Below are positions 3,250-42,482 of a stretch of 64,000 nucleotides of DNA, one piece after another. The notes beneath the pieces were generated by a model, which saw only the letters and a list, made by a program, of their open reading frames with translations, was not told the DNA's origin and did no database searches. This stretch comes from Candidatus Roizmanbacteria bacterium RIFCSPHIGHO2_02_FULL_37_13b (GTDB lineage: Bacteria; Patescibacteriota; Microgenomatia; UBA1406; HO2-37-13b): the NCBI GenBank assembly GCA_001789395.1, contig MFZK01000021.1, positions 2,114 through 66,113 on the forward strand. The letters run 5' to 3'. The number at the start of each line of letters is the position of its first letter. Position 1 is the first letter of the stretch. The translations under genes were made by a program, and so were the position numbers.

Positions 3250-3335
3250 TTATTCCCGCTACGCGAAAACCGATGGGTTATTAACCCGCTTGATGAAGCT
3301 GTCATCGAGACTTTCGCTCCGCGGGATTTCAGCTA
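3250..3335 (-). repeat. structured intergenic element E1 (member of the CGAAGCGAA-core family)
   Basis: Outer stem TCCCGC(3254-3259)/GCGGGA(3321-3326) and inner stem GCGAAA(3263-3268)/TTTCGC(3312-3317). Two apical hairpins: GGGTT..AACCC and GATGA..TCATC. Same architecture and conserved flanks as 5945-6026. Confidence 0.5.
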
Positions 3336-3350
3336 TAAATCTCAATGAAT

Positions 3351-3371
3351 CCGAGGGCTGTTAGCCCTCGG
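3351..3371 (-). terminator. hairpin just downstream of the 3376 gene stop (possible terminator)
   Basis: CCGAGGGCT-gtt-AGCCCTCGG, a 9-bp GC-rich stem starting 5 nt after the stop codon. The U-tract is weak. Confidence 0.4.
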
Positions 3372-3375
3372 AGCT

Positions 3376-5139
3376 TCAATATAATGGTTTGTTTAGCTGT
3401 TTAAACTTATTCATAAATTCTTCTGCATTTTTGCTGTCTTTATAACAATTGGCATAAAGATCAATATATATTTTATAGACCTCTTTTAAATCAACTCGAT
3501 ATTTTTCCGAGGGGCCTAATATTTCTTTTGCTCTATTGCATTGTTTTACTTTTATGAGGCTTTTGGCAAATGCTAAAATATTTATAGTATTATCCGGCCA
3601 TAAATTAAAAGCCTGTTCATATTCACTACTTGAAAATTCATATTGTTTGTCTTTAAATAGGAGTTCCCCAAAGGTCCAATGGCCCAATGAATAAGTTCTA
3701 AGTACGTCAGATAAAAGCAAACTTCTGAATTTAGCTAAAGATCCGGACATTGGTGAATGATATTTATTCCAAAGAAGAATGTTACTGACGATTAATCCTT
3801 TTGCATCAGGCAAAGATTTTCCTTCTGAATAATATTTCCATAAAATACCCATGGGTAACCAGGAAGAATTTTTTGTGTTCAGGGGTTCATTACTATATAT
3901 AGGAAATCTTTCGCTATTAAAAAGTAAGAAATCATGGACAGTGATATCGTAATTACTATTAATTGCGGGTAGTTTTATATTCGGATAAAGTTTGCTTATT
4001 TTCACCTGATATTTAGCATCATTCAGCCGGAGAAAATTGATAAATTTGACGTCACGACGCTGGTGTTGTACCTCTTTTACAAACAGAGAATTGTAAGAAA
4101 TAGTATCACCTTTCAGATTTACTATTGAGTTTTTCTCTACACTATTTAATACGTCAAACCCAAAATTTTCAGCCGTAAAATCCTGTTTTAGAAGAAGAAT
4201 ACGAGGAGAATTATTGATAAAAAGTATTAGACAATAAATTAACAATGATATCGAAAAGGCGGCAGCTCCAGCGATTTTAAGAGTTTTATTGTGAAGTCTA
4301 TTATTTACCAGTCCATTAATTGTTTTAAATCCTAAAAGCAATGCAACTGTTAAGAAAAAGTAAGGTATTAAAAGGTATTTTTCAAAAGTTCCGATTGTAA
4401 AATTAATTGTTAGCGGAAAGGAGGTATAGAAAAAGAAAACAACAAAAATAATAAACTGAATGATAAAAAATTTCTTCATGGCCTCATCCTTCATTTTTAA
4501 TATCGTCACAAAACCGGCAATTATAAAGAATGTGCCAATTATTTTGAAATCAGTCAAAATAAAATTAAAAAAATTGAGTAATGACGTTGTCGCTGCCGAT
4601 AGTGAAAAAAAAGTTGTGCGTGATAATCGGAATATTCCATAATCACTCCGTGCGATCAATCGAAGTAAATCGACTAAATTGCTTGGAAAAGTTGTCTCAA
4701 GGGGTGTTACCGTACCAGCCCTAAAGAGGTAATAAAAATAAGGTGTTCCACCTAAAAAGAATAAAAGGAAGAGTATCAGTCGGTCATGGATCTTTTTAAA
4801 AAAAATAGTCTTTGTCCTGTATAGATAAAAACAAATGCCGGGTATTACCAAAAGTATCAGATAATTGTGAAAAGTTGCAAGTCCTAAGATAAAAAAGAAA
4901 ATACGCATTTGCAGAGCCGTCTTTATATTAGCTCCAAAAGCTAAGTACATTAGAATAGCTAAATATAATATGACCATTGTAATCACCTCAGGAATCGATG
5001 AAAATAGCCATACCGGGTATAGAAAGGAGAAAATAAATGCACCGCATAGCGCTAAATAATCAGACTTAAGTAATTTCCGTAAGGTTAGAAATAGAAAAAT
5101 TCGTGTAATGGCGATTGCAAAAGAAGACAGTAAAGTCAC
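3376..5139 (-). CDS. DUF2723-like GT-C family membrane protein with C-terminal TPR-like region; true N-terminus probably extends to ~5340-5352
   Basis: 587-aa ORF called from a GTG. The same frame stays open upstream to 5361. That upstream stretch encodes ...ICILSSGFLINVFFQSYSIYGGDGGELVTAAYLSSIPHPPGFPLYLLI, which resembles the conserved DUF2723 N-terminal motif (D.GE...HPPGYPLY). Confidence 0.7.
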   Translation of the reverse strand: MTLLSSFAIAITRIFLFLTLRKLLKSDYLALCGAFIFSFLYPVWLFSSIPEVITMVILYLAILMYLAFGANIKTALQMRIFFFILGLATFHNYLILLVIPGICFYLYRTKTIFFKKIHDRLILFLLFFLGGTPYFYYLFRAGTVTPLETTFPSNLVDLLRLIARSDYGIFRLSRTTFFSLSAATTSLLNFFNFILTDFKIIGTFFIIAGFVTILKMKDEAMKKFFIIQFIIFVVFFFYTSFPLTINFTIGTFEKYLLIPYFFLTVALLLGFKTINGLVNNRLHNKTLKIAGAAAFSISLLIYCLILFINNSPRILLLKQDFTAENFGFDVLNSVEKNSIVNLKGDTISYNSLFVKEVQHQRRDVKFINFLRLNDAKYQVKISKLYPNIKLPAINSNYDITVHDFLLFNSERFPIYSNEPLNTKNSSWLPMGILWKYYSEGKSLPDAKGLIVSNILLWNKYHSPMSGSLAKFRSLLLSDVLRTYSLGHWTFGELLFKDKQYEFSSSEYEQAFNLWPDNTINILAFAKSLIKVKQCNRAKEILGPSEKYRVDLKEVYKIYIDLYANCYKDSKNAEEFMNKFKQLNKPLY

Positions 5140-5361
5140 TCTCCATGCGATGCTAGCAAATGGTATAAATTTAACAAAAAACGATGATATTAAAAGATAA
5201 AGTGGGAATCCTGGTGGGTGTGGAATACTTGAAAGATAGGCGGCAGTGACTAGCTCTCCCCCATCTCCACCATATATGCTGTAGCTTTGAAAAAAAACAT
5301 TGATTAAAAAACCACTACTCAGAATACAAATTGTTACAATTCTTTTTAGCAGATTAGTATC

Positions 5362-5944: not shown

Positions 5945-6026
5945 TTTCAATCCTCCTTCGCGAAAATCTTGATCATCAGATTGCAAGACTTAAAAACCAT
6001 TTTTCGCTTCGGCAGGATTTCGGCTC
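5945..6026 (-). repeat. structured intergenic element E2 (member of the CGAAGCGAA-core family)
   Basis: Outer stem AATCCT(5949-5954)/AGGATT(6014-6019) and inner stem GCGAAAA(5960-5966)/TTTTCGC(6001-6007). Conserved CGCGAAAA, AGACTT, TTCGCT and GGATTTC.GCT blocks are shared with 3250-3335. Confidence 0.5.
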
Positions 6027-6071
6027 TTTTGATAAAAGTAAAATGTGTCCCGGTGTCTATTGGCAGGAGCC

Positions 6072-7271
6072 TCAAAATGCATTAGTTAGGTTGTAGATAG
6101 GCGTTATCACCGAAAAGACAATAAATCCGACACCAATAGCTAATACTACTAATATCACAGGTTCAATCATAGTGGTCAATGCTTTGATCGCCAGTTCTGA
6201 TTCCATTTCAAAAAAAACCGACATTTTAAATAAGACTTCATCCAAATGGCCAGTTTGCTCACCTACCGTGGTCATTTGCACCAATATTGGCGGAAAGAGC
6301 TCCAGTTGCCCCATACTTTTTCCCAAAGAATCCCCTTTTTCGACACGGTTTTTAATCGTGGCAAATGCGTCCTGAAAAACCAGATTGCTGGACGTTTCTA
6401 CAGCGATAGATAACGCCTCAATAATAGATACTCCTGATTTCATCAGTATTGAGAGAGTTCGAGTCGTATCAACCAATGCCGACATTTTTATGATCTTATT
6501 AAAAAGCGGTATTTTTAATATTAATCTATCAAACAATTTCTTACCTCGTTTAGTGTGAAGAATCCTTTTCGTCAAAACTACTGCACCAAATATAATTATT
6601 ATGACAAGCGGCCAAGCACGCTGGAAAAAAGAAGAAATTACAATTAGAATTTTGGTGGTTATCGGTAAATCTATATCAAAATCTTTATACAATTCGAGTA
6701 ATTTTGGGATGACAAAGGTTATCATAACAAATATGACTCCAATCATCCCGATAATAATTATCACCGGATATATTAATGCTCCTTTTATCTTAGCTTTAAA
6801 TGTGCGCTGCTTTTCGAGCTGATCTGCTAGGCGGACAAGTATTTCATCAAGTTTGCCAGATGCCTCACCAGACTTGACCAATGCAATATAGAGGTTGTTA
6901 AAGTGATGCGGATATTGACTCATCGCTAAGGATAAACTGTTTCCTGCTCTAATGCTGTCATCTAAACTATTGATAAGCCTGAGCATTGCCGGATTAGTCG
7001 TCTGCTTTTTTAAAATATCTAAGGCATCGATTATCGTCAATCCGGCATTAAACATAATCGCGAGTTGACGAGTAAAATCGACAATATCTGAATGACCAAC
7101 GCTTGCGAAATATTTATTCTGCATCTCATTGAATAAATTTTTATGCTCAAATATATCAACAATGAGGTAATTTTTTGCTTTGAGATATTCTATCAACTTT
7201 TGTTTGTTATCAGCCTCTATGTTTGCTTTAATCAGGACATTGTTTTTCAGAGCCTTATAGGTGAATTTCAT
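6072..7271 (-). CDS. pilC: type IV pilus platform protein PilC (GspF family)
   Basis: 399 aa with a duplicated GspF-like domain and three TM regions. It sits adjacent to the pilT and pilB ATPases. Confidence 0.85.
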   Translation of the reverse strand: MKFTYKALKNNVLIKANIEADNKQKLIEYLKAKNYLIVDIFEHKNLFNEMQNKYFASVGHSDIVDFTRQLAIMFNAGLTIIDALDILKKQTTNPAMLRLINSLDDSIRAGNSLSLAMSQYPHHFNNLYIALVKSGEASGKLDEILVRLADQLEKQRTFKAKIKGALIYPVIIIIGMIGVIFVMITFVIPKLLELYKDFDIDLPITTKILIVISSFFQRAWPLVIIIIFGAVVLTKRILHTKRGKKLFDRLILKIPLFNKIIKMSALVDTTRTLSILMKSGVSIIEALSIAVETSSNLVFQDAFATIKNRVEKGDSLGKSMGQLELFPPILVQMTTVGEQTGHLDEVLFKMSVFFEMESELAIKALTTMIEPVILVVLAIGVGFIVFSVITPIYNLTNAF

Positions 7272-17132: not shown

Positions 17133-17141
17133 GAACTAGAT

Positions 17142-17291
17142 TTACTTTTTACAACCTTTACACTGGCGGTGAGGAATTTTCAATTTACCACAATTTTTAC
17201 ACTTAACCGATTTTACTAGATTAAAATGCCTAGTTTTTAATCGTAGTCCTTTGCGTCTTGTTGAATGCTTCCGTTTTGGTAGAGGTGCCAT
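17142..17291 (-). CDS. rpmF: 50S ribosomal protein L32
   Basis: Not in the ORF track because it is under 60 aa. My translation: MAPLPKRKHSTRRKGLRLKTRHFNLVKSVKCKNCGKLKIPHRQCKGCKK, with the L32 N-terminal motif and a CxxC...CxxC zinc ribbon. Confidence 0.85.
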   Translation of the reverse strand: MAPLPKRKHSTRRKGLRLKTRHFNLVKSVKCKNCGKLKIPHRQCKGCKK

Positions 17292-17357
17292 ATATTAAAC
17301 AAATTTTACTATTTTGTAATGATTTTATCAATAGCGTGTACTGATATTGTTGTTCTA

Positions 17358-19442
17358 TTAATCCTGAGAGTATAAATCCGTTGAAAGATTATTTAACATT
17401 TTTGTAATTTCGGGTGACTTAATAAGTGATGGACGTGACATTACATAATCGGCTGCTTCTTGGGTCTTTTCTACAAGATCAAAATCAGAAAAATCAGCTA
17501 TTTTGAGATGCGGAATTCCATGTTGTTTGGTGCCAAATATTTCTCCGGCTCCCCTATTCTTCAAATCATATTCTGCCAGTTCAAAACCATTGACGGTTGA
17601 TGTAAATACTTTAAGTCGATTTTGTGTAGTCGGATTTCGGTTTTCACTAAATAGCAAACAATAACTCTGTATACTACCGCGACCGACACGACCACGAAGC
17701 TGATGAAGTTGCGCTAACCCATAACGATCGGAAGACTCAATAATTATTATTGCTGCGTTTGGAATATCAATGCCTACCTCAACGACAGGTGTGGACACTA
17801 ATATATCTATTGTCCCTTGTGTAAATTCCGTCATAACTCTTTTTTTTTCTGCAGATTTCATTTTGCCATGAAGCAGTGATAATCTAAACTTCGGAAACAC
17901 TTGCGTTTTCAAAGTTTCAAACTCACGACTAACCGCTTTTATATCTTTCATCGTTTCAACATCTGATTGGTCGATTAATGGACAGACAATAAAAACTTGA
18001 ATGTGCTCAGTTGTTATTTTTTTTCTAATCCACTCATATGCTTTTTCTCTTTTATCATATGGTACTAAGAAACTTTTAGTCTTTATTCTTTCTTGTGGTA
18101 GTTCTTTTATTCGTGAAACATCAAGTTGTCCATATAGGGTTAAGAGGACGGTTCGAGGTATTGGCGTTGCCGTCATCGTTAATAAATGCGGATGTTGAGC
18201 AATATTTTTTAACTTAGCTCTTTGAACAACTCCAAATTTGTGTTGCTCATCTATAACGATTAGTCCTACATTTGGATATTTCTTTTTGAATATCAAGGCC
18301 GTTGTACCAATAATAATATCTGCATCCTTTATGTCACCACTTTTGGTTTTGTTCGATCCGGTTAAGGTCAATATTTTCAATTTGTTTTTCAGTAATTTAG
18401 TTAAAGTCGTAAAATGCTGTTGACAAAGAATCTCCGTTGGCGCTAATATTAATGTTTTTTTTCCATTCAAATAAGAAAAATAAGCCGCTATAAGCGCAAC
18501 AACTGTTTTACCACTACCGACTTCACCTTGAAGCAAGCGATTCATCGGCTCGTTTTTTTTAAGATCTAAAACTAGTTCTCCTACCGCTATTTTTTGATCG
18601 TGGGTCAGTTTGAATGGTAGCTCTTCTTCAAACTGATTAAGTTTATCGATTATTTCATTAGTTTCCACCATCTGTGTTTTCACTTTTAAACGCTTGCGTT
18701 GTTCTCTTTGAATCTTACTTTTTAGCTGAAGAATAAAGATTTCGTCAAAAGCAAGTCGATGTTTCGCCAATTCAAAATTATGTTCATCGATTGGAGTATG
18801 AATATTCGATATAGCGTGACGTAAGTCTATCAATTGATATTTATTAATAATTTCTTGAGGCAGATAATCATATATTTCATCAATGTATGCCTTTAATAAA
18901 TGATAGATTTTTTCACGAATAAGCCGTGAAGATAATCCGTTTTTTTCCGAATAGACAGGAATAAGTCCACCTGTATGAATACCAACATCAGATAAATTAT
19001 TTAATAATTCATAGCTTTCTACAAGTACGCTTCGTGTGCCTCTTATTTGATCAAGCTTACCCGATATTTGAATGAGACTACCCGGTTTAATTAGAGAAAG
19101 TAGATAATATTGATTAAACCAAATAAGATTCATTTGCCCACTTTCATCTTTTAACGTTGCTTTTTGCACATGGCGTCCATTTTTGGTGCTAACATTAAGT
19201 ATTTTAGTAATTTCTCCTCTTATGGTTATCTGATTACTAAGCTTGAATTCGTTGGTAAACAAATTTTCATTATTGACTTGTACAACGACTTTGGATATTA
19301 ATTGGGGCTTTGGATAGAATTGGATGCGAAATGGGTAATAATTAAGCAGATCCCAATACGTTAGGATTCCTATCTTTTTTAATCGATGAATAGTTTGGGA
19401 AGCAGTTTTCGGTAGAAAATCTATATTTGAAAAAAGAGACAT
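17358..19442 (-). CDS. recG: ATP-dependent DNA helicase RecG
   Basis: 694 aa with an N-terminal OB/wedge region, Walker A GEVGSGKT, and a DEQHKFG box. Confidence 0.9.
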   Translation of the reverse strand: MSLFSNIDFLPKTASQTIHRLKKIGILTYWDLLNYYPFRIQFYPKPQLISKVVVQVNNENLFTNEFKLSNQITIRGEITKILNVSTKNGRHVQKATLKDESGQMNLIWFNQYYLLSLIKPGSLIQISGKLDQIRGTRSVLVESYELLNNLSDVGIHTGGLIPVYSEKNGLSSRLIREKIYHLLKAYIDEIYDYLPQEIINKYQLIDLRHAISNIHTPIDEHNFELAKHRLAFDEIFILQLKSKIQREQRKRLKVKTQMVETNEIIDKLNQFEEELPFKLTHDQKIAVGELVLDLKKNEPMNRLLQGEVGSGKTVVALIAAYFSYLNGKKTLILAPTEILCQQHFTTLTKLLKNKLKILTLTGSNKTKSGDIKDADIIIGTTALIFKKKYPNVGLIVIDEQHKFGVVQRAKLKNIAQHPHLLTMTATPIPRTVLLTLYGQLDVSRIKELPQERIKTKSFLVPYDKREKAYEWIRKKITTEHIQVFIVCPLIDQSDVETMKDIKAVSREFETLKTQVFPKFRLSLLHGKMKSAEKKRVMTEFTQGTIDILVSTPVVEVGIDIPNAAIIIIESSDRYGLAQLHQLRGRVGRGSIQSYCLLFSENRNPTTQNRLKVFTSTVNGFELAEYDLKNRGAGEIFGTKQHGIPHLKIADFSDFDLVEKTQEAADYVMSRPSLIKSPEITKMLNNLSTDLYSQD

Positions 19443-28153: not shown

Positions 28154-29446
28154 TCATTTAATTATTCTACCAAATAACTTGTCTTTTTGATACTTGATAA
28201 CCTCAATTCTTTTGATATCTCCCGGTCTTATCGATGTTTTTTCAACATACACTGGAACTTGATTATCTAAGAGAACCTCTTGTATGCTGTCTGTATTTTT
28301 TAAAAACAATGCGTTACTTTTATAGCCCAAAAGACTTTTCTGAAACGCTTCAAACTTTTCATCTGATAATTCTCGAAGCAATCGAGAACGTTCAATTTTA
28401 GTTTTATTATCAGGTTCTTTCAGTCTTTTTGCTAAATAATAACCGGCAGTCATTTCTCTTTTGGAAAATCTGAATACGTGAAATTTTGAAATTGGCGATT
28501 TATCAAGAAAATTATAAGTATCTTTAAAATCATTATCTGTTTCCTCGAGAAACCCAACAATAATGTCTGTTGATATAAAAATCCTTTTATTTATCGACGC
28601 GAGTCGTTTTACTCGATCTATCATGTCTTCTCTTGTATGACATCGTTTCATTAGGGTGAGTATTTTATTTGAACCGGATTGAAGAGGAATATGAAAAAAA
28701 TTGACTAAGCGATTGTTTATTTGCTCTTGTTGATAAAAATCGATAAATTCGTTTGTTATACTCCAAGGATGAACGGATCCAAAACTTAATCTAGGAACCT
28801 TCGTATTTTTTAACACCGATTTAATAAGTTCTATGAAACCTTCGTTTGAATCTTTGCCAAATGCTTCGGTATTTATAGCAGTTAAAACAACTTCTTTAAT
28901 ATTGTCTGAGGAATGATTTATGGTATTCACTATTTCTTTGATTGGTATAGACTTTGGTAAACCCCGTAAATATGGAACAATGCAGAATGAACAAAATCGA
29001 TGACAGCCATCCTGAATTTTGACCAATAATCTTCCAGATAACAAAAATTTGTCGGATAGTATATCAACCACTTTCGGACGGCCGTCTAAAAGTGGTATAT
29101 TCTTTAACAGTTTATTTTTAATTAATTGGACTAAGTATTCTTTTTGGAGATTATCAGTAATTAAGTCAACGGGTAAATCGGTATATTTGCCAGACTTTAA
29201 CCAATATGTGCTGCAACAGCCGGTGACGACTATCTTGGTCTGAGGTTGTTTTTTTCGAACTTGGTAGATAAGTTGTCTGGCCTCCCTTTCTGCTTTTTGG
29301 GTGACAGAGCAGGTATTAATGATATATATATCAGGCTCTACAGTAGTTTGTTTAAAACCTTTGATAATCATTTGTCGATCAATTTCTTCTTTTTCCGCTA
29401 TATTTACTCGACATCCAAAACTAAAAGAATCAAAGGTGGGTGGCAT
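28154..29446 (-). CDS. radical-SAM methylthiotransferase (MiaB/MtaB-like tRNA-modifying enzyme)
   Basis: N-terminal UPF0004 cysteines (FGCRVN, NTCSVT, GCC), a CxxxCxxC radical-SAM motif (CHRFCSFC), and a C-terminal TRAM-like region. Confidence 0.8.
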   Translation of the reverse strand: MPPTFDSFSFGCRVNIAEKEEIDRQMIIKGFKQTTVEPDIYIINTCSVTQKAEREARQLIYQVRKKQPQTKIVVTGCCSTYWLKSGKYTDLPVDLITDNLQKEYLVQLIKNKLLKNIPLLDGRPKVVDILSDKFLLSGRLLVKIQDGCHRFCSFCIVPYLRGLPKSIPIKEIVNTINHSSDNIKEVVLTAINTEAFGKDSNEGFIELIKSVLKNTKVPRLSFGSVHPWSITNEFIDFYQQEQINNRLVNFFHIPLQSGSNKILTLMKRCHTREDMIDRVKRLASINKRIFISTDIIVGFLEETDNDFKDTYNFLDKSPISKFHVFRFSKREMTAGYYLAKRLKEPDNKTKIERSRLLRELSDEKFEAFQKSLLGYKSNALFLKNTDSIQEVLLDNQVPVYVEKTSIRPGDIKRIEVIKYQKDKLFGRIIK

Positions 29447-33485: not shown

Positions 33486-33699
33486 CTAGAAACTGTTTGC
33501 GACTCAGTCGGAAATACAGTTTCTTGTGTCCTTAAATGAAGCAAAGGGAGTTTAAGGACTAGTTATTGGTGACTGTAGCCCGAAGGTTTATCGCGTTGCG
33601 ATAAACTGAAGGTCCCTTAGAGTGATAACGACAAGGGATCATTGAGAAGATATCATATAAAATTAGGAGGTAAGATATTGAAATATAGTAGAAAAATTT
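33486..33699 (+). other. 214-nt hairpin-rich tRNA spacer containing a duplicate of the tRNA-His 5' end
   Basis: Hairpins: AGAAACTGT..ACAGTTTCT, GTCCTTAAA..TTTAAGGAC, GTTTATCGC-gtt-GCGATAAAC and TCCCTT..AAGGGA. GGTGACTGTAGC at 33568-33579 is identical to the tRNA-His start at 33700-33711. Confidence 0.5.
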
Positions 33700-33773
33700 G
33701 GTGACTGTAGCTCAGTTGGTAGAGCGTCGCCCTGTGGAGGCGAATGTCGCGGGTTCGAATCCCGTCAGTCACC
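33700..33773 (+). tRNA. tRNA-His (anticodon GTG) with encoded G-1
   Basis: G-1 + GTGACTG/CAGTCAC + C73, anticodon loop CTGTGGA, T-arm GCGGGTTCGAATCCCGT. Confidence 0.85.
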
Positions 33774-33774
33774 C

Positions 33775-33932
33775 ATTAGAGCCTCTTGACGAGCTTAAGC
33801 GAGTTATAGAGGCTCTTTGTCCTGAGTCGCCGAATAGTGACGCGACGAAGGGCATTAGAGAATTATAGCGAGTTATAGAGGCTCTTTGTCCTGAGTCGCC
33901 GAATAATGACGCGACGAAGGGCATTAGAGAAT
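33775..33932 (+). repeat. tRNA-trailing element, tandem copies (R-A, R-B and the start of a third)
   Basis: 65-nt units at 33799-33863 and 33868-33932 are identical except one position (33837 g vs 33906 a), with a 69-nt period. The first copy carries the hairpin AGAGCCTCT..AGAGGCTCT followed by TTTG. Confidence 0.8.
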
Positions 33933-35504
33933 ATAATGACATCCAAGACTTTTTTTTCGGGAGATAGCCGATTGAGTAATTAACTTAGCAACTTGCAGCA
34001 TATTCAATGTCTCCATGAAGTATATTAGATCCGATGGTAAAACCTCTTTATCCAATAAATATCCATGTTTTTTCTTCTTAAATAGTGTAATCATTTTGTC
34101 GACCTCATACAGAGTTGTCTTTAATAGGTTTTGATGCCTGATTATGCCAACATTTTGCCACATAATGTCCTGAAGACGACGTCTGATCTTAACAGCCTTT
34201 TGCAGGTCATTTTTTGTAAATATTACTTTTTTTACATTGACCACTTTCAGACGGCCGTCTGAAAGTGGTATGGGTAGAAAATGATCTTTATTAATAGAAT
34301 GCTTAGTTGTAGACATTTTATTTAATATATTTTGAGCTACACGAGTGCCAAACACGACTCCTTCAAGGAGTGAATTCGATGCTAATCGGTTTGCTCCGTG
34401 AACGCCGGTATTGGCAACTTCCCCAACTGCATAGAGATTCTTGACATTTGTTTGACCATTGAGATCGGTATTAACACCTCCGCAAAGATAATGAGCTGCC
34501 GGAACTACAGGAATTAGACTACGGCAAAGATCCAATTCCCTAATTTTAAGTTCACGATAAATATTTGGAAAGCGTTTTTTCAACCTTTCACAGTTGAGAT
34601 GATTAAACAATAAAAATATTTCTTTACCTGTGATTTCCATCTGATAGATCGCCTGAGCTAGTTCATCGCGGGGCGATAATTCCGCCCGACTTAATTTGTT
34701 TATAAAAATTCGTCTTCGGGTTTTATCCACTAAATACCCTCCTTCACCTCGAAGAGATTCTGAAAGAAGAAAAAGAGGTGATATGTCCCCTTTTAGTGCT
34801 GTCGGATGAAATTGTATAAATTCCATATTACTGATCTTTGCTCCTGCAGAATTTGCAAGTACAATACCATCACCCGTAGACACAGATGGATTGGTAGTAT
34901 ATTTATAAAGCTGTCCCAAACCTCCGGTGGCTAAGACTATTGATTTTGAATTTGTAGACTGAATCTCAATTTTCCGGCTTTTATCTTTAAGGTTTATATA
35001 CGTGACACCAAAACAAATTCCGTTCTTCACTAAAAGTTTAGTTACAAAAACTTCGCTGTAAAAATCTATACCAATCTTTTTCGCAGTATTGATTAAAGCT
35101 TTTTCAATATTTTGGCCAGTAAAATCCGATGAATGGACAATTCGTTTAGCTGAATGGGCTGCTTCAAGAGATGTGATAATGTTATTATGAGCATCCTTAT
35201 CGAAAACTACGCCAGAATTTTCCAAAAAGTCAATTGCCTTTTTACTTTCATGAGAAAGAGTGGATACTGCTTTTTTATCATTAATAAATTTACCAGCCGA
35301 TAAAGTATCATCGATATGAGCTTTATAACTGTCAATATTACCAAGGACAGCGACAATGCCTCCTTGTGCGAGTGAAGTCGCGCAATCATCAATTTTAGCT
35401 TTAGTATAAATAGCAACGGATTTACTTTTCTTTTTTAAATTGATTGCCGTCGTTAAACCGGCGATTCCCGATCCTATGATTAATGCATCATAATTGTTTT
35501 CCAT
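33924..35504 (-). CDS. nadB: L-aspartate oxidase
   Basis: FAD-binding DALIIGSGIAGLTTA, 526 aa, adjacent to nadA and nadC. Confidence 0.85.
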   Translation of the reverse strand: MENNYDALIIGSGIAGLTTAINLKKKSKSVAIYTKAKIDDCATSLAQGGIVAVLGNIDSYKAHIDDTLSAGKFINDKKAVSTLSHESKKAIDFLENSGVVFDKDAHNNIITSLEAAHSAKRIVHSSDFTGQNIEKALINTAKKIGIDFYSEVFVTKLLVKNGICFGVTYINLKDKSRKIEIQSTNSKSIVLATGGLGQLYKYTTNPSVSTGDGIVLANSAGAKISNMEFIQFHPTALKGDISPLFLLSESLRGEGGYLVDKTRRRIFINKLSRAELSPRDELAQAIYQMEITGKEIFLLFNHLNCERLKKRFPNIYRELKIRELDLCRSLIPVVPAAHYLCGGVNTDLNGQTNVKNLYAVGEVANTGVHGANRLASNSLLEGVVFGTRVAQNILNKMSTTKHSINKDHFLPIPLSDGRLKVVNVKKVIFTKNDLQKAVKIRRRLQDIMWQNVGIIRHQNLLKTTLYEVDKMITLFKKKKHGYLLDKEVLPSDLIYFMETLNMLQVAKLITQSAISRKKSLGCHYIL

Positions 35505-36532: not shown

Positions 36533-37431
36533 GAAATCACATTATTAAATCATATTTTGATAAATCAAGACTGCTCACATTAAAAAATGCCAATTATATT
36601 AAACACTTCACGAAATTATTTGATTCATTAGTGGATTTCGATGATGTCAAAAGCGATATCACGAGTCGCATCCTGTCATTTGGGTTAAAGCGTGGTATAG
36701 CTAAGATTATATTTAACGAGTCTGGACTTTTGGCTGGAATGGAGGAAATTAAATATTATATTGAAAAAAGAACCGAGATTAAATTTATTAATGAATTGCA
36801 AGATGGCAGTAAAATTAATAAAGGTATTTGTATTTGTGAATTGCATGGTTCTTTGCAAGAAATTTTGAAGTATGAGAGATTAATATTAAATGTTTTACAA
36901 CGATTATCAGGAATCGCAACTCAAACAAATAAGTTAGTCACAAAAAGTTTTAGTATGCGTATAGCCGCAACCAGAAAAACACACTGGGGTTGGTTGGATA
37001 AAAAAGCCGTCTCTATCGGTGGCGGTTTAACACATAGGCTTTCATTAGCTGATGGCATATTAGTGAAGGATAATCATATTGACCTATTATCTAAAGAAAG
37101 AAAAAAAGCCATTAAAATGATTTTAGATTCATGTCGGGGGAAATTAATTGAGATTGAAGTGGAATCGAGTGATGAAGCAATCTTTGCTCTTGACGAGTGG
37201 CATTACCTCTATGCTCTTAAACCTATTATTATTATGCTTGATAATTTTTCCATTCAAGATGCAAATAAAACTATAATGAAAATAAAATCTAATAATATTG
37301 TGATTGAATTATCCGGTGGTATCAATAAGCAAAATATAGCTAAATATAAGCAAACTGAGGCAGACGTTATTTCAATTGGAGCACTTACACATTCTGCAAC
37401 TGCTCTTGATATGTCGCTCCAATTTGCATAA
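36529..37431 (+). CDS. nadC: quinolinate phosphoribosyltransferase (nicotinate-nucleotide pyrophosphorylase)
   Basis: RKTHWG...GGG..HR..L.D..LVKDNHI pattern, 300 aa, 4-nt overlap with nadA. Confidence 0.8.
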   Translation: MRNHIIKSYFDKSRLLTLKNANYIKHFTKLFDSLVDFDDVKSDITSRILSFGLKRGIAKIIFNESGLLAGMEEIKYYIEKRTEIKFINELQDGSKINKGICICELHGSLQEILKYERLILNVLQRLSGIATQTNKLVTKSFSMRIAATRKTHWGWLDKKAVSIGGGLTHRLSLADGILVKDNHIDLLSKERKKAIKMILDSCRGKLIEIEVESSDEAIFALDEWHYLYALKPIIIMLDNFSIQDANKTIMKIKSNNIVIELSGGINKQNIAKYKQTEADVISIGALTHSATALDMSLQFA

Positions 37432-37444
37432 AATATTTGAGATC

Positions 37445-37517
37445 GGGTCCATAGCTCAACTGGCAGAGCAACTCCCTCTTAAGGAGTCGGTTGGAGGTTC
37501 GAGTCCTCCTGGACTCA
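37445..37517 (+). tRNA. tRNA-Lys (anticodon CTT)
   Basis: Acceptor GGGTCCA/TGGACTC (one G-T pair), anticodon loop CTCTTAA, T-arm GGAGGTTCGAGTCCTCC. Confidence 0.85.
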
Positions 37518-37518
37518 C

Positions 37519-37623
37519 ATTAGAGCTTCTTGACGAGCGTAAGCGAGTCCTAGAAGATTTTTGTCCTGAGCGAAGCGAAGGGCATGGGTTAAGTTGCATG
37601 CAAAAGAGAACTTCGTTTTTTTT
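37519..37623 (+). repeat. tRNA-trailing element R-C ending in a hairpin plus T8 (possible terminator)
   Basis: ATTAGAGCTTCTTGACGAGCGTAAGCGAGTCCTAGAAG...GTCCTGAGCGAAGCGAAGGGC aligns with the element after tRNA-His. CGAAG(37576-37580)/CTTCG(37611-37615) pairs and is followed by T8 at 37616-37623. Confidence 0.6.
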
Positions 37624-42373: not shown

Positions 42374-42412
42374 CTCTCTTGAAACGAAAGTAACTAGTTG
42401 GGATAAGGCACA

Positions 42413-42460
42413 GCCGACTTAGCTCAGTGGTAGATCCACCTGCTTTCATGCAGGAGGATC
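42413..42460 (+). other. tRNA-like 5' fragment fused to an 11-bp hairpin (probable tRNA remnant)
   Basis: GCCGACTTAGCTCAGTGGTAGA looks like a tRNA acceptor 5' strand plus D-arm. It continues into GATCCACCTGC-tttcat-GCAGGAGGATC (one mismatch, 6-nt loop). No T-arm or 3' acceptor strand follows. Confidence 0.35.
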
Positions 42461-42482
42461 CGCTTTGTATAGGAAATTGTAA

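What the first reader, a model, noticed from the sequence alone, without database searches (positions are those of the whole stretch)
37519..37623. All visible members of the TCCTG..CGAAGCGAA element family are co-oriented with local transcription
The copies I can align are R-A and R-B (33775-33922, plus), a diverged copy in the tRNA spacer (33532-33563, plus), R-C (37519-37600, plus), and E1 (3250-3335) and E2 (5945-6026). E1 and E2 match the others only on their minus strand, which is the strand of the surrounding genes. Every copy therefore has the same polarity relative to the transcripts it would be part of. That polarity favours an RNA-level role (terminator, processing site or stabiliser) over a randomly inserted DNA repeat. 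R-C ends in CGAAG...CTTCG plus T8, right before the next gene, consistent with termination. The elements are markedly GC-richer than their surroundings.
Basis: seen in the sequence. Interest (0 to 1): 0.55.

Follow-up and report, generated by a model that had tools for sequence, protein, structure and literature searches.

The report
GC-rich double-hairpin repeats after tRNA genes
In this AT-rich Roizmanbacteria (CPR) genome, short GC-rich two-hairpin repeats start within 0-1 bases of the 3' end of the tRNA-His and tRNA-Lys genes; they look like small inserted hairpin DNA that is transcribed as tRNA trailers, which is interesting but is a variant of a known kind of bacterial repeat.

Summary

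- **R family.** R-A and R-C are clear homologues. R-B is a 69-nt tandem duplication of part of R-A.
- **Position.** R-A starts at the first base after tRNA-His. R-C starts one base after the tRNA-Lys discriminator. Neither tRNA encodes CCA.
- **Structure.** Each R has two hairpins with tandem G.A pairs.
- **Conservation.** An R element follows tRNA-His at the same junction in an unrelated metagenome contig, with compensatory stem changes. It is absent after tRNA-Lys and tRNA-His in three relatives.
- **E1/E2.** These form a separate ~130-nt family, with a third copy just outside the window.
- **The 'diverged copy'.** It belongs to a third element whose first hairpin recurs directly after the 16S rRNA.
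- **Orientation.** All copies are sense to local transcription, but the number of loci is small.
- **Wider distribution.** The hairpin modules occur widely in Bacteria, including in-frame inside genes where an empty site was found. In GC-rich contigs they show no orientation bias.
- **Known families.** No Rfam family matches and there is no canonical terminator.

Best reading: REP- or RPE-like inserted hairpin DNA sitting in 3' trailers. Any RNA-level role, such as a 3'-end barrier, is unproven.

The parts
33701..33774 (+). tRNA-His(GTG) with no encoded CCA. Its last base, C73, abuts R-A.
33775..33853 (+). R-A. AUU linker. Hairpin 1 has stems at 33778-33786 and 33808-33816, with the apex module ACGAGC-UUAA-GCGAGU at 33789-33804. 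UUU spacer. Hairpin 2 (33819-33853) reads GUCC-UGAG-[UCGC..GCGA]-CGAA-GGGC, with tandem G.A pairs. An 8-nt direct repeat CATTAGAG lies at 33774-33781 and 33853-33860.
   Evidence: MFE -37.7, z -5.6; 63.4 bits
33867..33935 (+). R-B, a 69-nt tandem duplicate of 33798-33866 (98% identical). It keeps hairpin 2 (33888-33922) but lacks the 5' arm of hairpin 1.
   Evidence: (family D5)
37445..37518 (+). tRNA-Lys(CTT) with no encoded CCA. A promoter-like site lies at 37406-37434.
37519..37583 (+). R-C. Hairpin 1 has arms at 37522-37530 and 37552-37560, with the apex ACGAGC-GUAA-GCGAGU at 37533-37548. Hairpin 2 is GUCCUGAGC-GAA-GCGAAGGGC at 37563-37583.
   Evidence: 73.8 bits
37584..37623 (+). Downstream tail of R-C. 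It holds a GCAUG..CAUGC hairpin, then CUUCG (37611-15) and U8 (37616-23). An alternative helix CGAAG:CUUCG lies 1.2-1.5 kcal/mol above the MFE, and the two CGAAG:CUUCG closing pairs have pair probabilities of 0.19 and 0.10. This tail is not conserved in R-A or L207.
   Evidence: (no terminator call)
33487..33560 (+). A-type double hairpin, starting 2 nt after tRNA-Arg(TCG). Hairpin 1 is UAGAAACUGU..ACAGUUUCU. Hairpin 2 is GUCCUUAAA..UUUAAGGAC. The same hairpin-1 stem recurs 5 nt after the 16S rRNA (L215 16308-16350).
3250..3380 (-). E1, a separate family. Its 5' end AUUGAAGCU contains the stop codon of the upstream ORF. It then has a GC hairpin CCGAGGGCU-AAC-AGCCCUCGG, followed by a long hairpin AAUCCCGC-GGA-GCGAAAG..UUUUCGC-GUA-GCGGGAAU.
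   Evidence: (z -4.05)
5949..6077 (-). E2, a diverged E member with a GAA/GAA internal loop. The upstream stop codon lies in its 5' end. A near-consensus promoter (5937-5908) follows it.

Best explanation
R-A/R-B and R-C are copies of a small (65-80 nt) GC-rich double-hairpin repeat. It was acquired as DNA, by insertion or duplication, and it sits in the 3' trailers of two CCA-less tRNA genes in a Candidatus Roizmanbacteria genome.

**Anatomy.** Each hairpin carries the same kind of cap, a tandem sheared G.A motif. Hairpin 1 has 5'-CGAG/CGAG over a GC clamp and an NNAA loop. Hairpin 2 has 5'-UGAG..CGAA. These caps are modular. The same modules occur on unrelated stems in many bacteria, can be nested in one another, and are found inside ORFs.

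**How it works (inferred).** Because R begins within 0-1 nt of the tRNA's 3' end, it is transcribed as the tRNA trailer. RNase Z would cut it off before CCA addition. While attached, two very stable hairpins a few bases after the mature end would act as a 3'-end barrier, blocking exonucleases or pausing polymerase, much as REP elements do. The E elements would do the same at the ends of protein genes.

**Shown:** homology, position, structure, covariation, sporadic distribution, and insertion into ORFs in other genomes.

**Inferred:** transcription, RNase Z release, the barrier function, and the insertion mechanism.
For: - **Organism.** Protein accessions name Candidatus Roizmanbacteria.
- **Homology and junction.** Shown.
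- **Folds.** R-A has z -5.6 and the L207 copy z -4.8.
- **Covariation.** Over 9 R-like sequences, 8 pairs change on both sides. 88.5% of cells are paired, against 29-44% when partners are slid.
- **Second organism.** L207/L208 have tRNA-His followed at the same base by R. One stem pair changes C-G to U-A, and the hairpin-2 apex is replaced by a nested CGAGC-GUUA-GCGAG module. No L207 ORF of 90 aa or more matches the window by tblastn (E<=1e-3).
- **Sporadic distribution.** The syntenic relative L217 has tRNA-Lys with CCA and no R. L218 and L219 have tRNA-His without R, although the L218 tRNA-His is closer to the window's (94.6%) than L207's is (89.2%).
- **DNA insertion.** An R-like element (61 bits) sits in-frame in a Levyibacteria S1-domain gene. 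An allele whose protein is about 85% identical has an empty site, and a third allele carries a different module there. Another copy lies in the N-terminus of a 145-aa ORF.
- **Modularity.** The apex module sits on unrelated stems. The 21-22-nt form GTCCTGAGC-N3-4-YCGAAGGGC accounts for 55 of about 130 pattern hits in viral contigs, often several per contig.
- **Strand asymmetry.** tRNA-flank intergenic regions fold 30-50% better on the sense strand.
- **Local pattern.** tRNA-Arg, tRNA-His, tRNA-Glu and the 16S rRNA are each followed by a strongly structured double hairpin; tRNA-Lys has the same hairpins but a weak z of -1.8.
- **Compact genome.** Most convergent genes overlap with no hairpin at all, so these elements are extras rather than obligatory signals.
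Against: - No transposase, integrase or reverse transcriptase lies in the window or in about 20 kb of flanks.
- There is no consistent target-site duplication. Only R-A has the 8-nt CATTAGAG repeat.
- Two different tRNAs carry R at an almost identical junction, and a second organism shares it. That fits selection for a trailer function as well as it fits targeted insertion.
- Double hairpins from at least three sequence families follow stable-RNA genes here. This argues for function rather than mere tolerance.
- Homology between the CPR elements and the GC-rich 21-mers is motif-level only.
- No expression data are available.
Confidence: 0.5

Rival explanations
1. The double hairpins are a dedicated RNA signal for stable-RNA 3'-end formation. 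They would be a lineage-specific termination or processing module, recognised through the tandem-G.A motifs by a nuclease or termination factor. On this view they are not selfish DNA.
For: - Four stable-RNA genes in one genome are followed within 5 nt by strongly structured double hairpins drawn from three sequence families (z -3.9 to -7.3); tRNA-Lys has the same hairpins but a weak z of -1.8.
- Seven of seven independent loci are sense.
- R is conserved after tRNA-His in a second organism, with compensatory changes.
- The sense strand folds more stably than the antisense strand.
- CGAAGCGAA is shared by R-C, E2 and the 16S trailer.
- An RNase III gene lies in the window.
Against: - R is absent after the same tRNAs in L217, L218 and L219.
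- R-like copies lie inside ORFs, where termination or cleavage would be harmful.
- One antisense module sits next to the L203 element.
- The module shows no orientation bias in GC-rich contigs.
- tRNA-Ala and several other tRNAs lack such trailers.
Confidence: 0.25
2. R-C is a Rho-independent terminator. The helix CGAAG..CUUCG followed by U8 would stop transcription of tRNA-Lys before pfkB.
For: - The sequence elements are present.
- The alternative helix lies only 1.2-1.5 kcal/mol above the MFE. The two CGAAG:CUUCG closing pairs have pair probabilities of 0.19 and 0.10.
Against: - The consensus scan calls no terminator there.
- The helix encloses about 30 nt and competes with the conserved hairpin 2.
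- R-A/R-B and L207 have no comparable U-run. The T8 near R-B lies inside nadB coding sequence.
- Canonical terminators are not enriched in the regions scanned.
Confidence: 0.1
3. R elements are relics of site-specific integration next to tRNA genes, that is, the end sequences of integrated elements whose interior has been lost.
For: - In L201, an R-like double hairpin lies in a 110-nt insert flanked by a 22-bp direct repeat of the tRNA-Gln 3' end.
- A 14-nt direct repeat of the tRNA-His 5' end flanks a 117-nt hairpin-rich insert at 33581-33697.
- R-C and pfkB are both missing from the syntenic L217 locus.
Against: - No repeat of a tRNA 3' segment flanks R-A or R-C.
- No integrase lies nearby.
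- This does not explain the ORF-internal copies.
Confidence: 0.1

Closest known systems
REP/BIME and REPIN elements of proteobacteria (RAYT-associated; PMC3116915 seen; functional details from own knowledge)
   Same: - Short, imperfect, GC-rich hairpin repeats.
- Extragenic and typically at the 3' ends of transcription units.
- Strand-asymmetric mismatches.
- As RNA they can block 3'-5' exonucleases.
   Different: - R has no GTAG head and no inverted doublets.
- R is a two-hairpin unit with tandem G.A caps.
- R abuts tRNA 3' ends.
- Copy number appears low.
- No RAYT gene was seen in about 85 kb.
Rickettsia palindromic elements (RPE) (own knowledge)
   Same: - Small palindromic repeats in a reduced, AT-rich genome.
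- They insert in-frame into protein genes, as R-like elements do in L188 and L209.
   Different: - RPEs are 100-150 bp.
- They are unrelated in sequence.
- The window's own R copies are not in ORFs.
Mitochondrial GC clusters, double-hairpin elements (Allomyces) and sponge repetitive hairpin-forming elements (PMC2800124, title and abstract seen; the rest from own knowledge)
   Same: - GC-rich hairpin or double-hairpin repeats invading AT-rich compact genomes.
- Often found beside tRNA and rRNA genes.
   Different: - They occur in organelles, not bacteria.
- There is no sequence relationship.
- No tandem-G.A cap has been described for them.
tRNA 3' external transcribed spacers such as E. coli 3'ETS-leuZ (own knowledge)
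   Same: - RNA that begins at the tRNA 3' end, is co-transcribed, and is released by processing.
   Different: - 3'ETS-leuZ acts by base-pairing as an sRNA sponge.
- In R the conserved parts are structural (G.A motifs and stems), and the loops vary.
Rho-independent terminators
   Same: - A stable GC-rich hairpin at the end of a transcription unit.
   Different: - No U-tract directly follows the stem in R-A, R-B or L207.
- The consensus scan was negative.

Membership tests
Any Rfam family (including hammerhead, twister, pistol, hatchet and HDV-like ribozymes) | Covariance-model score at or near the gathering threshold | tested here: not met
   Only tRNAs reach the gathering threshold. With E<=10 nothing relevant appears on R, on E or on the GC-rich module loci.
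Hammerhead ribozyme | Core CUGANGA ... GAAA around three stems | tested here: not met
   The sequence reads CCUGAG-[stem]-CGAAGG. The N-G-A of the core is missing, and Rfam gives no hit.
Kink-turn | A 3-nt bulge next to tandem G.A pairs | tested here: not met
   The tandem G.A pairs lie in continuous helices with no bulge (folds).
Rho-independent terminator | GC-rich stem-loop | tested here: met
Rho-independent terminator | U-tract within 0-2 nt of the stem | tested here: not met
   No site was called at R or E. The U8 of R-C lies 32 nt after hairpin 2. The alternative helix is sub-optimal.
REP/REPIN | Imperfect palindrome of 20-40 nt, repeated in the genome | tested here: met
   Hairpin 2 is 21-35 nt and occurs three times in the window. 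The same form is multi-copy in other genomes.
REP/REPIN | Conserved 5' GTAG head and inverted doublets | tested here: not met
   R has neither. GTAG and doublets were seen only in the GC-rich contig L089.
REP/REPIN | RAYT (Y1 transposase) gene in the genome | not testable with these tools
   None lies in the window or in about 20 kb of flanks. The whole genome is not available.
MITE | Terminal inverted repeats plus target-site duplication | tested here: inconclusive
   R-A is flanked by the 8-nt repeat CATTAGAG. R-C and L207 are not. The inverted repeats are internal hairpin stems, not element termini.
IS200/IS605-derived palindrome-associated element | Similar sub-terminal hairpins at both ends, no TIR or TSD, and a fixed short target 5' of the left end | tested here: inconclusive
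   The two hairpins share GAGC-loop-GCGA caps. The left flanks are CACCC and CTCAC, so no fixed tetranucleotide is seen. TnpA cannot be tested.
RPE-like in-frame insertion element | Filled and empty alleles of a coding site, with the reading frame preserved | tested here: met
   This holds for the R-like element in Levyibacteria. L188 carries a net +42 nt relative to the empty site in L220, and L221 has a different module at the same site. It was not shown for the window's own copies.
tRNA 3' trailer RNA | Starts at the discriminator +1/+2 of a CCA-less tRNA, on the same strand | tested here: met
tRNA 3' trailer RNA | Transcribed and released by RNase Z | not testable with these tools
   No expression data are available.

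The most novel reading that the evidence does not exclude
The tandem-G.A double hairpins are a previously undescribed, factor-recognised signal for 3'-end formation of stable RNAs in a CPR bacterium. It would serve tRNAs lacking CCA and the 16S rRNA. The widespread GTCCTGAGC..CGAAGGGC / ACGAGC-GNRA-GCGAGU mini-hairpins seen across Bacteria would be the same functional RNA or single-stranded-DNA motif, spread by an unknown mechanism.
Probability: 0.15. Interest if true: 0.7.

Novelty: new variant of a known kind. Interest (0 to 1): 0.4.

Why it matters
CPR bacteria have tiny, compact genomes, and almost nothing is known about how they end and process transcripts.

- **If the repeats act as RNA.** GC-rich double hairpins that begin within 0-5 bases of the mature ends of tRNA and 16S rRNA would point to an unusual route for stable-RNA 3'-end formation.
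- **If they are only inserted DNA.** They would show that very small hairpin elements still invade even these reduced genomes, including protein-coding sequence, as RPEs do in Rickettsia and GC clusters do in mitochondria.
- **For annotation.** The tandem-G.A mini-hairpin module seen in many phyla has no Rfam family. It is a likely source of spurious ORFs and of contig breaks.

Tried and rejected
- **Known RNA families.** Rfam searches at gathering and permissive thresholds on R, E and the GC-rich module loci gave nothing.
- **Ribozyme, k-turn and HDV-like readings.** Rejected on sequence and fold.
- **Generic scan for tandem-G.A hairpins in the window.** It found 42 hits against 42.3 +/- 6.6 in shuffles. 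No general excess exists; only the R copies stand out.
- **Searching translated spurious ORFs to find more R copies.** Only the query itself was returned (after the length error).
- **Literature searches.** Searches on peptide and DNA strings, and on CPR repeats, found nothing relevant.
- **E-family pattern in viral contigs.** No hits.
- **BLAST of the phage-like L025 locus against phage records.** No match.
- **GC skew as a guide to replication direction.** Uninformative.
- **Extending the genome by exact protein look-up.** It failed for two end ORFs and worked for two others.
- **Two intergenic regions that looked GC-rich.** Both 5140-5361 and 17133-17357 are coding sequence, not elements.
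- **Pfam on ORFs of the GC-rich island in L215.** Nothing found.
- **Strain polymorphism at R-C, E1 and E2.** None across 9 metagenome contigs.

Full report
**Source and setting.** The window is AT-rich (GC 0.34). Exact protein look-ups assign it to a Candidatus Roizmanbacteria MAG from Rifle groundwater. It carries ten tRNA genes and otherwise housekeeping genes. No transposase, integrase or reverse transcriptase was found in the window or in about 20 kb of same-genome flanks.

**The R family is real and is fused to tRNA 3' ends.**
- R-A (33775-33853) and R-C (37519-37583) align far above chance: score 69 against 13.3 +/- 2.3.
- GTCCTGAG..CGAAGGGC occurs three times against 0 expected.
- GACGAGCNTAAGCGAG occurs twice, both exact matches.
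- R-B is a 69-nt tandem duplication, 98% identical, that lacks the 5' arm of hairpin 1.
R-A starts at the base after C73 of tRNA-His. R-C starts one base after the discriminator of tRNA-Lys. Neither tRNA encodes CCA.

**Anatomy of R.**
- It consists of a 3-4 nt linker, hairpin 1, a UUU spacer and hairpin 2.
- Hairpin 1 has a 9-bp stem capped by ACGAGC-NNAA-GCGAGU. That cap contains tandem G.A pairs in the context 5'-CGAG/CGAG.
- Hairpin 2 reads GUCC-UGAG-[variable]-CGAA-GGGC, again with tandem G.A pairs.
- R-A folds at -37.7 kcal/mol (z -5.6). Its antisense strand reaches only -27.4.

**E1/E2 and the 'diverged copy' are other families.**
- E1 and E2 are related to each other.
- A third copy, E3, lies just beyond the right end of the window (L213 6540-6680).
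- E is about 130 nt. Its 5' end, UUGA(A/G)GCU, contains the stop codon of the upstream ORF in E1 and E2. It then has a GC-rich hairpin and a long hairpin with 3x3 G.A-type loops.
- Similarity between E and R is not significant. The best case is R-C against E2, 16 nt with a gap, p=0.018 before correction. The R covariance model does not find E or the tRNA-Arg trailer at E<=10.
- The interval 33532-33563 is part of the second hairpin of the tRNA-Arg trailer. The first hairpin of that trailer (UAGAAACUGU..ACAGUUUCU) recurs exactly 5 nt after the 16S rRNA of the same genome (L215).
- A loose motif link does exist. CGAAGCGAA occurs in R-C, in E2 and in the 16S trailer. With 0.41 expected in the window, this is only suggestive.

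**Orientation.**
- All independent loci are sense: R x2, E x3, A-type x2. That gives p of about 0.008 if orientation were random and the loci independent.
- At all four tRNA-flank intergenic regions the sense strand folds 30-50% better than the antisense strand.
- tRNA-Glu is also followed at +1 by two GC hairpins of unrelated sequence.
- So immediate double hairpins after stable-RNA genes are a recurring architecture here. The trailers of tRNA-Arg, tRNA-His, tRNA-Glu and the 16S rRNA have z from -3.9 to -7.3. The tRNA-Lys trailer has z -1.8 but clear hairpins.

**Comparative evidence.**
- Strict pattern scans found few full R-like elements.
- In L207/L208, tRNA-His is followed at the same base by R. 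One stem pair changes from C-G to U-A. The apex of hairpin 2 is replaced by a nested CGAGC-GUUA-GCGAG module. No L207 ORF of 90 aa or more matches the window by tblastn at E<=1e-3.
- Across nine R-like sequences, 8 pairs change on both sides. 88.5% of cells pair, against 29-44% when partners are slid. That alignment was fitted to the model, which favours the structure.
- R is nevertheless sporadic. The syntenic relative L217 has nadB-nadA-nadC and a tRNA-Lys with encoded CCA, but no R and no pfkB.
- L218 and L219 have tRNA-His without R. The L218 tRNA-His is closer to the window's (94.6%) than L207's is (89.2%).

**The hairpin caps are widespread modules that behave as inserted DNA.**
- The apex ACGAGC-GNRA-GCGAGU sits on unrelated stems in phage-like, Chloroflexi, Acidobacteria, Rickettsiaceae, Saccharibacteria and gammaproteobacterial contigs.
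- The 21-22-nt form GTCCTGAGC-N3-4-YCGAAGGGC makes up 55 of about 130 pattern hits in viral contigs. It is often multi-copy or present as inverted pairs.
- In those GC-rich contigs its orientation relative to flanking coding sequence is unbiased: 17 sense against 22 antisense upstream. This rests on a crude codon-phase method.
- An R-like element (61 bits) lies in-frame in a Levyibacteria S1-domain gene. An allele whose protein is about 85% identical has an empty site. A third allele has a different module at the same place. The native codons GAAGGGTTC form the 3' strand of hairpin 2.
- Another copy lies in codons 8-24 of a 145-aa ORF.
- These copies cannot be terminators or cleavage sites.

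**Terminator reading.**
- No canonical terminator is called at any R or E copy.
- R-C's CGAAG..CUUCG helix plus U8 lies 1.2-1.5 kcal/mol above the MFE. The two CGAAG:CUUCG closing pairs have pair probabilities of 0.19 and 0.10.
- It competes with the conserved hairpin 2 and is absent from R-A and L207.
- Most convergent genes in this genome overlap with no hairpin at all. These elements are therefore extras, not obligatory signals.

**Conclusion.**
- The best-supported reading (about 0.5) is a REP/RPE-like family. These are small GC-rich double-hairpin DNA insertions built from tandem-G.A modules. In this genome they lie in the trailers of CCA-less tRNAs and so are co-transcribed.
- A barrier or stabiliser role as RNA is plausible but inferred.
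- A dedicated signal for stable-RNA 3' ends remains a serious rival (about 0.25). A whole-genome census and transcript-end mapping would decide between them.
- Polarity alone does not discriminate. Strand-specific insertion of single-stranded DNA would give the same bias.

Noticed in passing
window 33567-33580 and 33698-33711 (insert at 33581-33697): A 14-nt direct repeat TTGGTGACTGTAGC, which is the 5' end of tRNA-His, flanks a 117-nt hairpin-rich insert just upstream of tRNA-His. The insert includes a tandem-G.A hairpin at 33611-33640 with an 8-bp stem. It looks like an insertion or duplication that regenerated the tRNA 5' end.
   Followed up: partly
window 33774-33781 and 33853-33860: An 8-nt direct repeat CATTAGAG flanks R-A, which could be a target-site duplication. 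R-C and the L207 copy do not have it. The right flank of the L207 copy (CAAAGGAGAAT) resembles that of R-A (CATTAGAGAAT).
   Followed up: partly
window 42412-42470: The spacer between tRNA-Leu(TAA) and tRNA-Thr holds a truncated tRNA-like fragment (GCCGACTTAGCTCAGTGGTAGA..CCTGCTTTCATGCAGG). It has an acceptor 5' arm, a D arm and an anticodon arm but no T arm. Neither ARAGORN nor Rfam calls it.
   Followed up: no
window 29060-29098 and 34233-34271: A 39-nt sequence, 87% identical between the two copies and containing a 30-nt near-perfect palindrome (ACCACTTTCAGACGG/CCGTCTGAAAGTGGT), lies inside two unrelated genes. One is a radical-SAM MiaB-like gene and the other is nadB. It encodes PL(L/S)DGR(P/L)KVV in both. 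Alignment with the L217 NadB shows no clean indel at that position.
   Followed up: partly
L215 17600-19900 (same contig as the window's left flank, beyond the 16S rRNA): A 2.3-kb island of GC 0.56-0.58 sits in a genome of GC 0.33. It carries small ORFs with no Pfam hit. It is preceded by a cluster of at least four hairpin modules in mixed orientation (17700-17945), including GTCATTGCGAG..CGAAGCAATC. This could be a foreign element or a chimeric join at the rRNA gene.
   Followed up: partly
L201 2719-2960: In a gammaproteobacterial MAG, tRNA-Gln is followed by a 110-nt insert that contains an R-like double hairpin. The insert is flanked by a 22-bp direct repeat of the tRNA 3' end, an att-like signature.
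   Followed up: no
L013, L025, L026, L027, L034, L042 (AT-rich viral contigs): A conserved non-coding region contains GACGAGCGTAAGCGAGTC followed by AGATTAGC-GAA-GCTAATCT, a GCGAAGC mini-hairpin. It lies downstream of about 200 nt of conserved, apparently structured sequence. There is no tRNA nearby and no match in phage records.
   Followed up: partly
L203 / L210 (Saccharibacteria), about 190 nt upstream of the 16S rRNA: An R-like element in sense orientation is immediately followed by a second hairpin-2-type module on the opposite strand (CCCTTCGACTCGCCCC..GGGGCTCGCTCAGGG). Orientation is therefore not uniform even within CPR genomes.
   Followed up: no
L001, L005, L007-L009 contig ends: Several independent metagenome contigs of this organism break inside or next to tRNA-His/R-A or tRNA-Lys/R-C. 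Assemblers seem to treat these as repeats, which hints at further copies elsewhere in the genome.
   Followed up: no
Levyibacteria S1-domain proteins P0129-P0138 (alignment A6, columns 275-300 and about 388-398): One surface loop of the S1 domain carries a different short insertion in almost every close homologue, for example GGPRLRDGELVD and ARSPTRRASGLREQASGPGG. This looks like a hotspot for repeated insertion of hairpin modules.
   Followed up: partly
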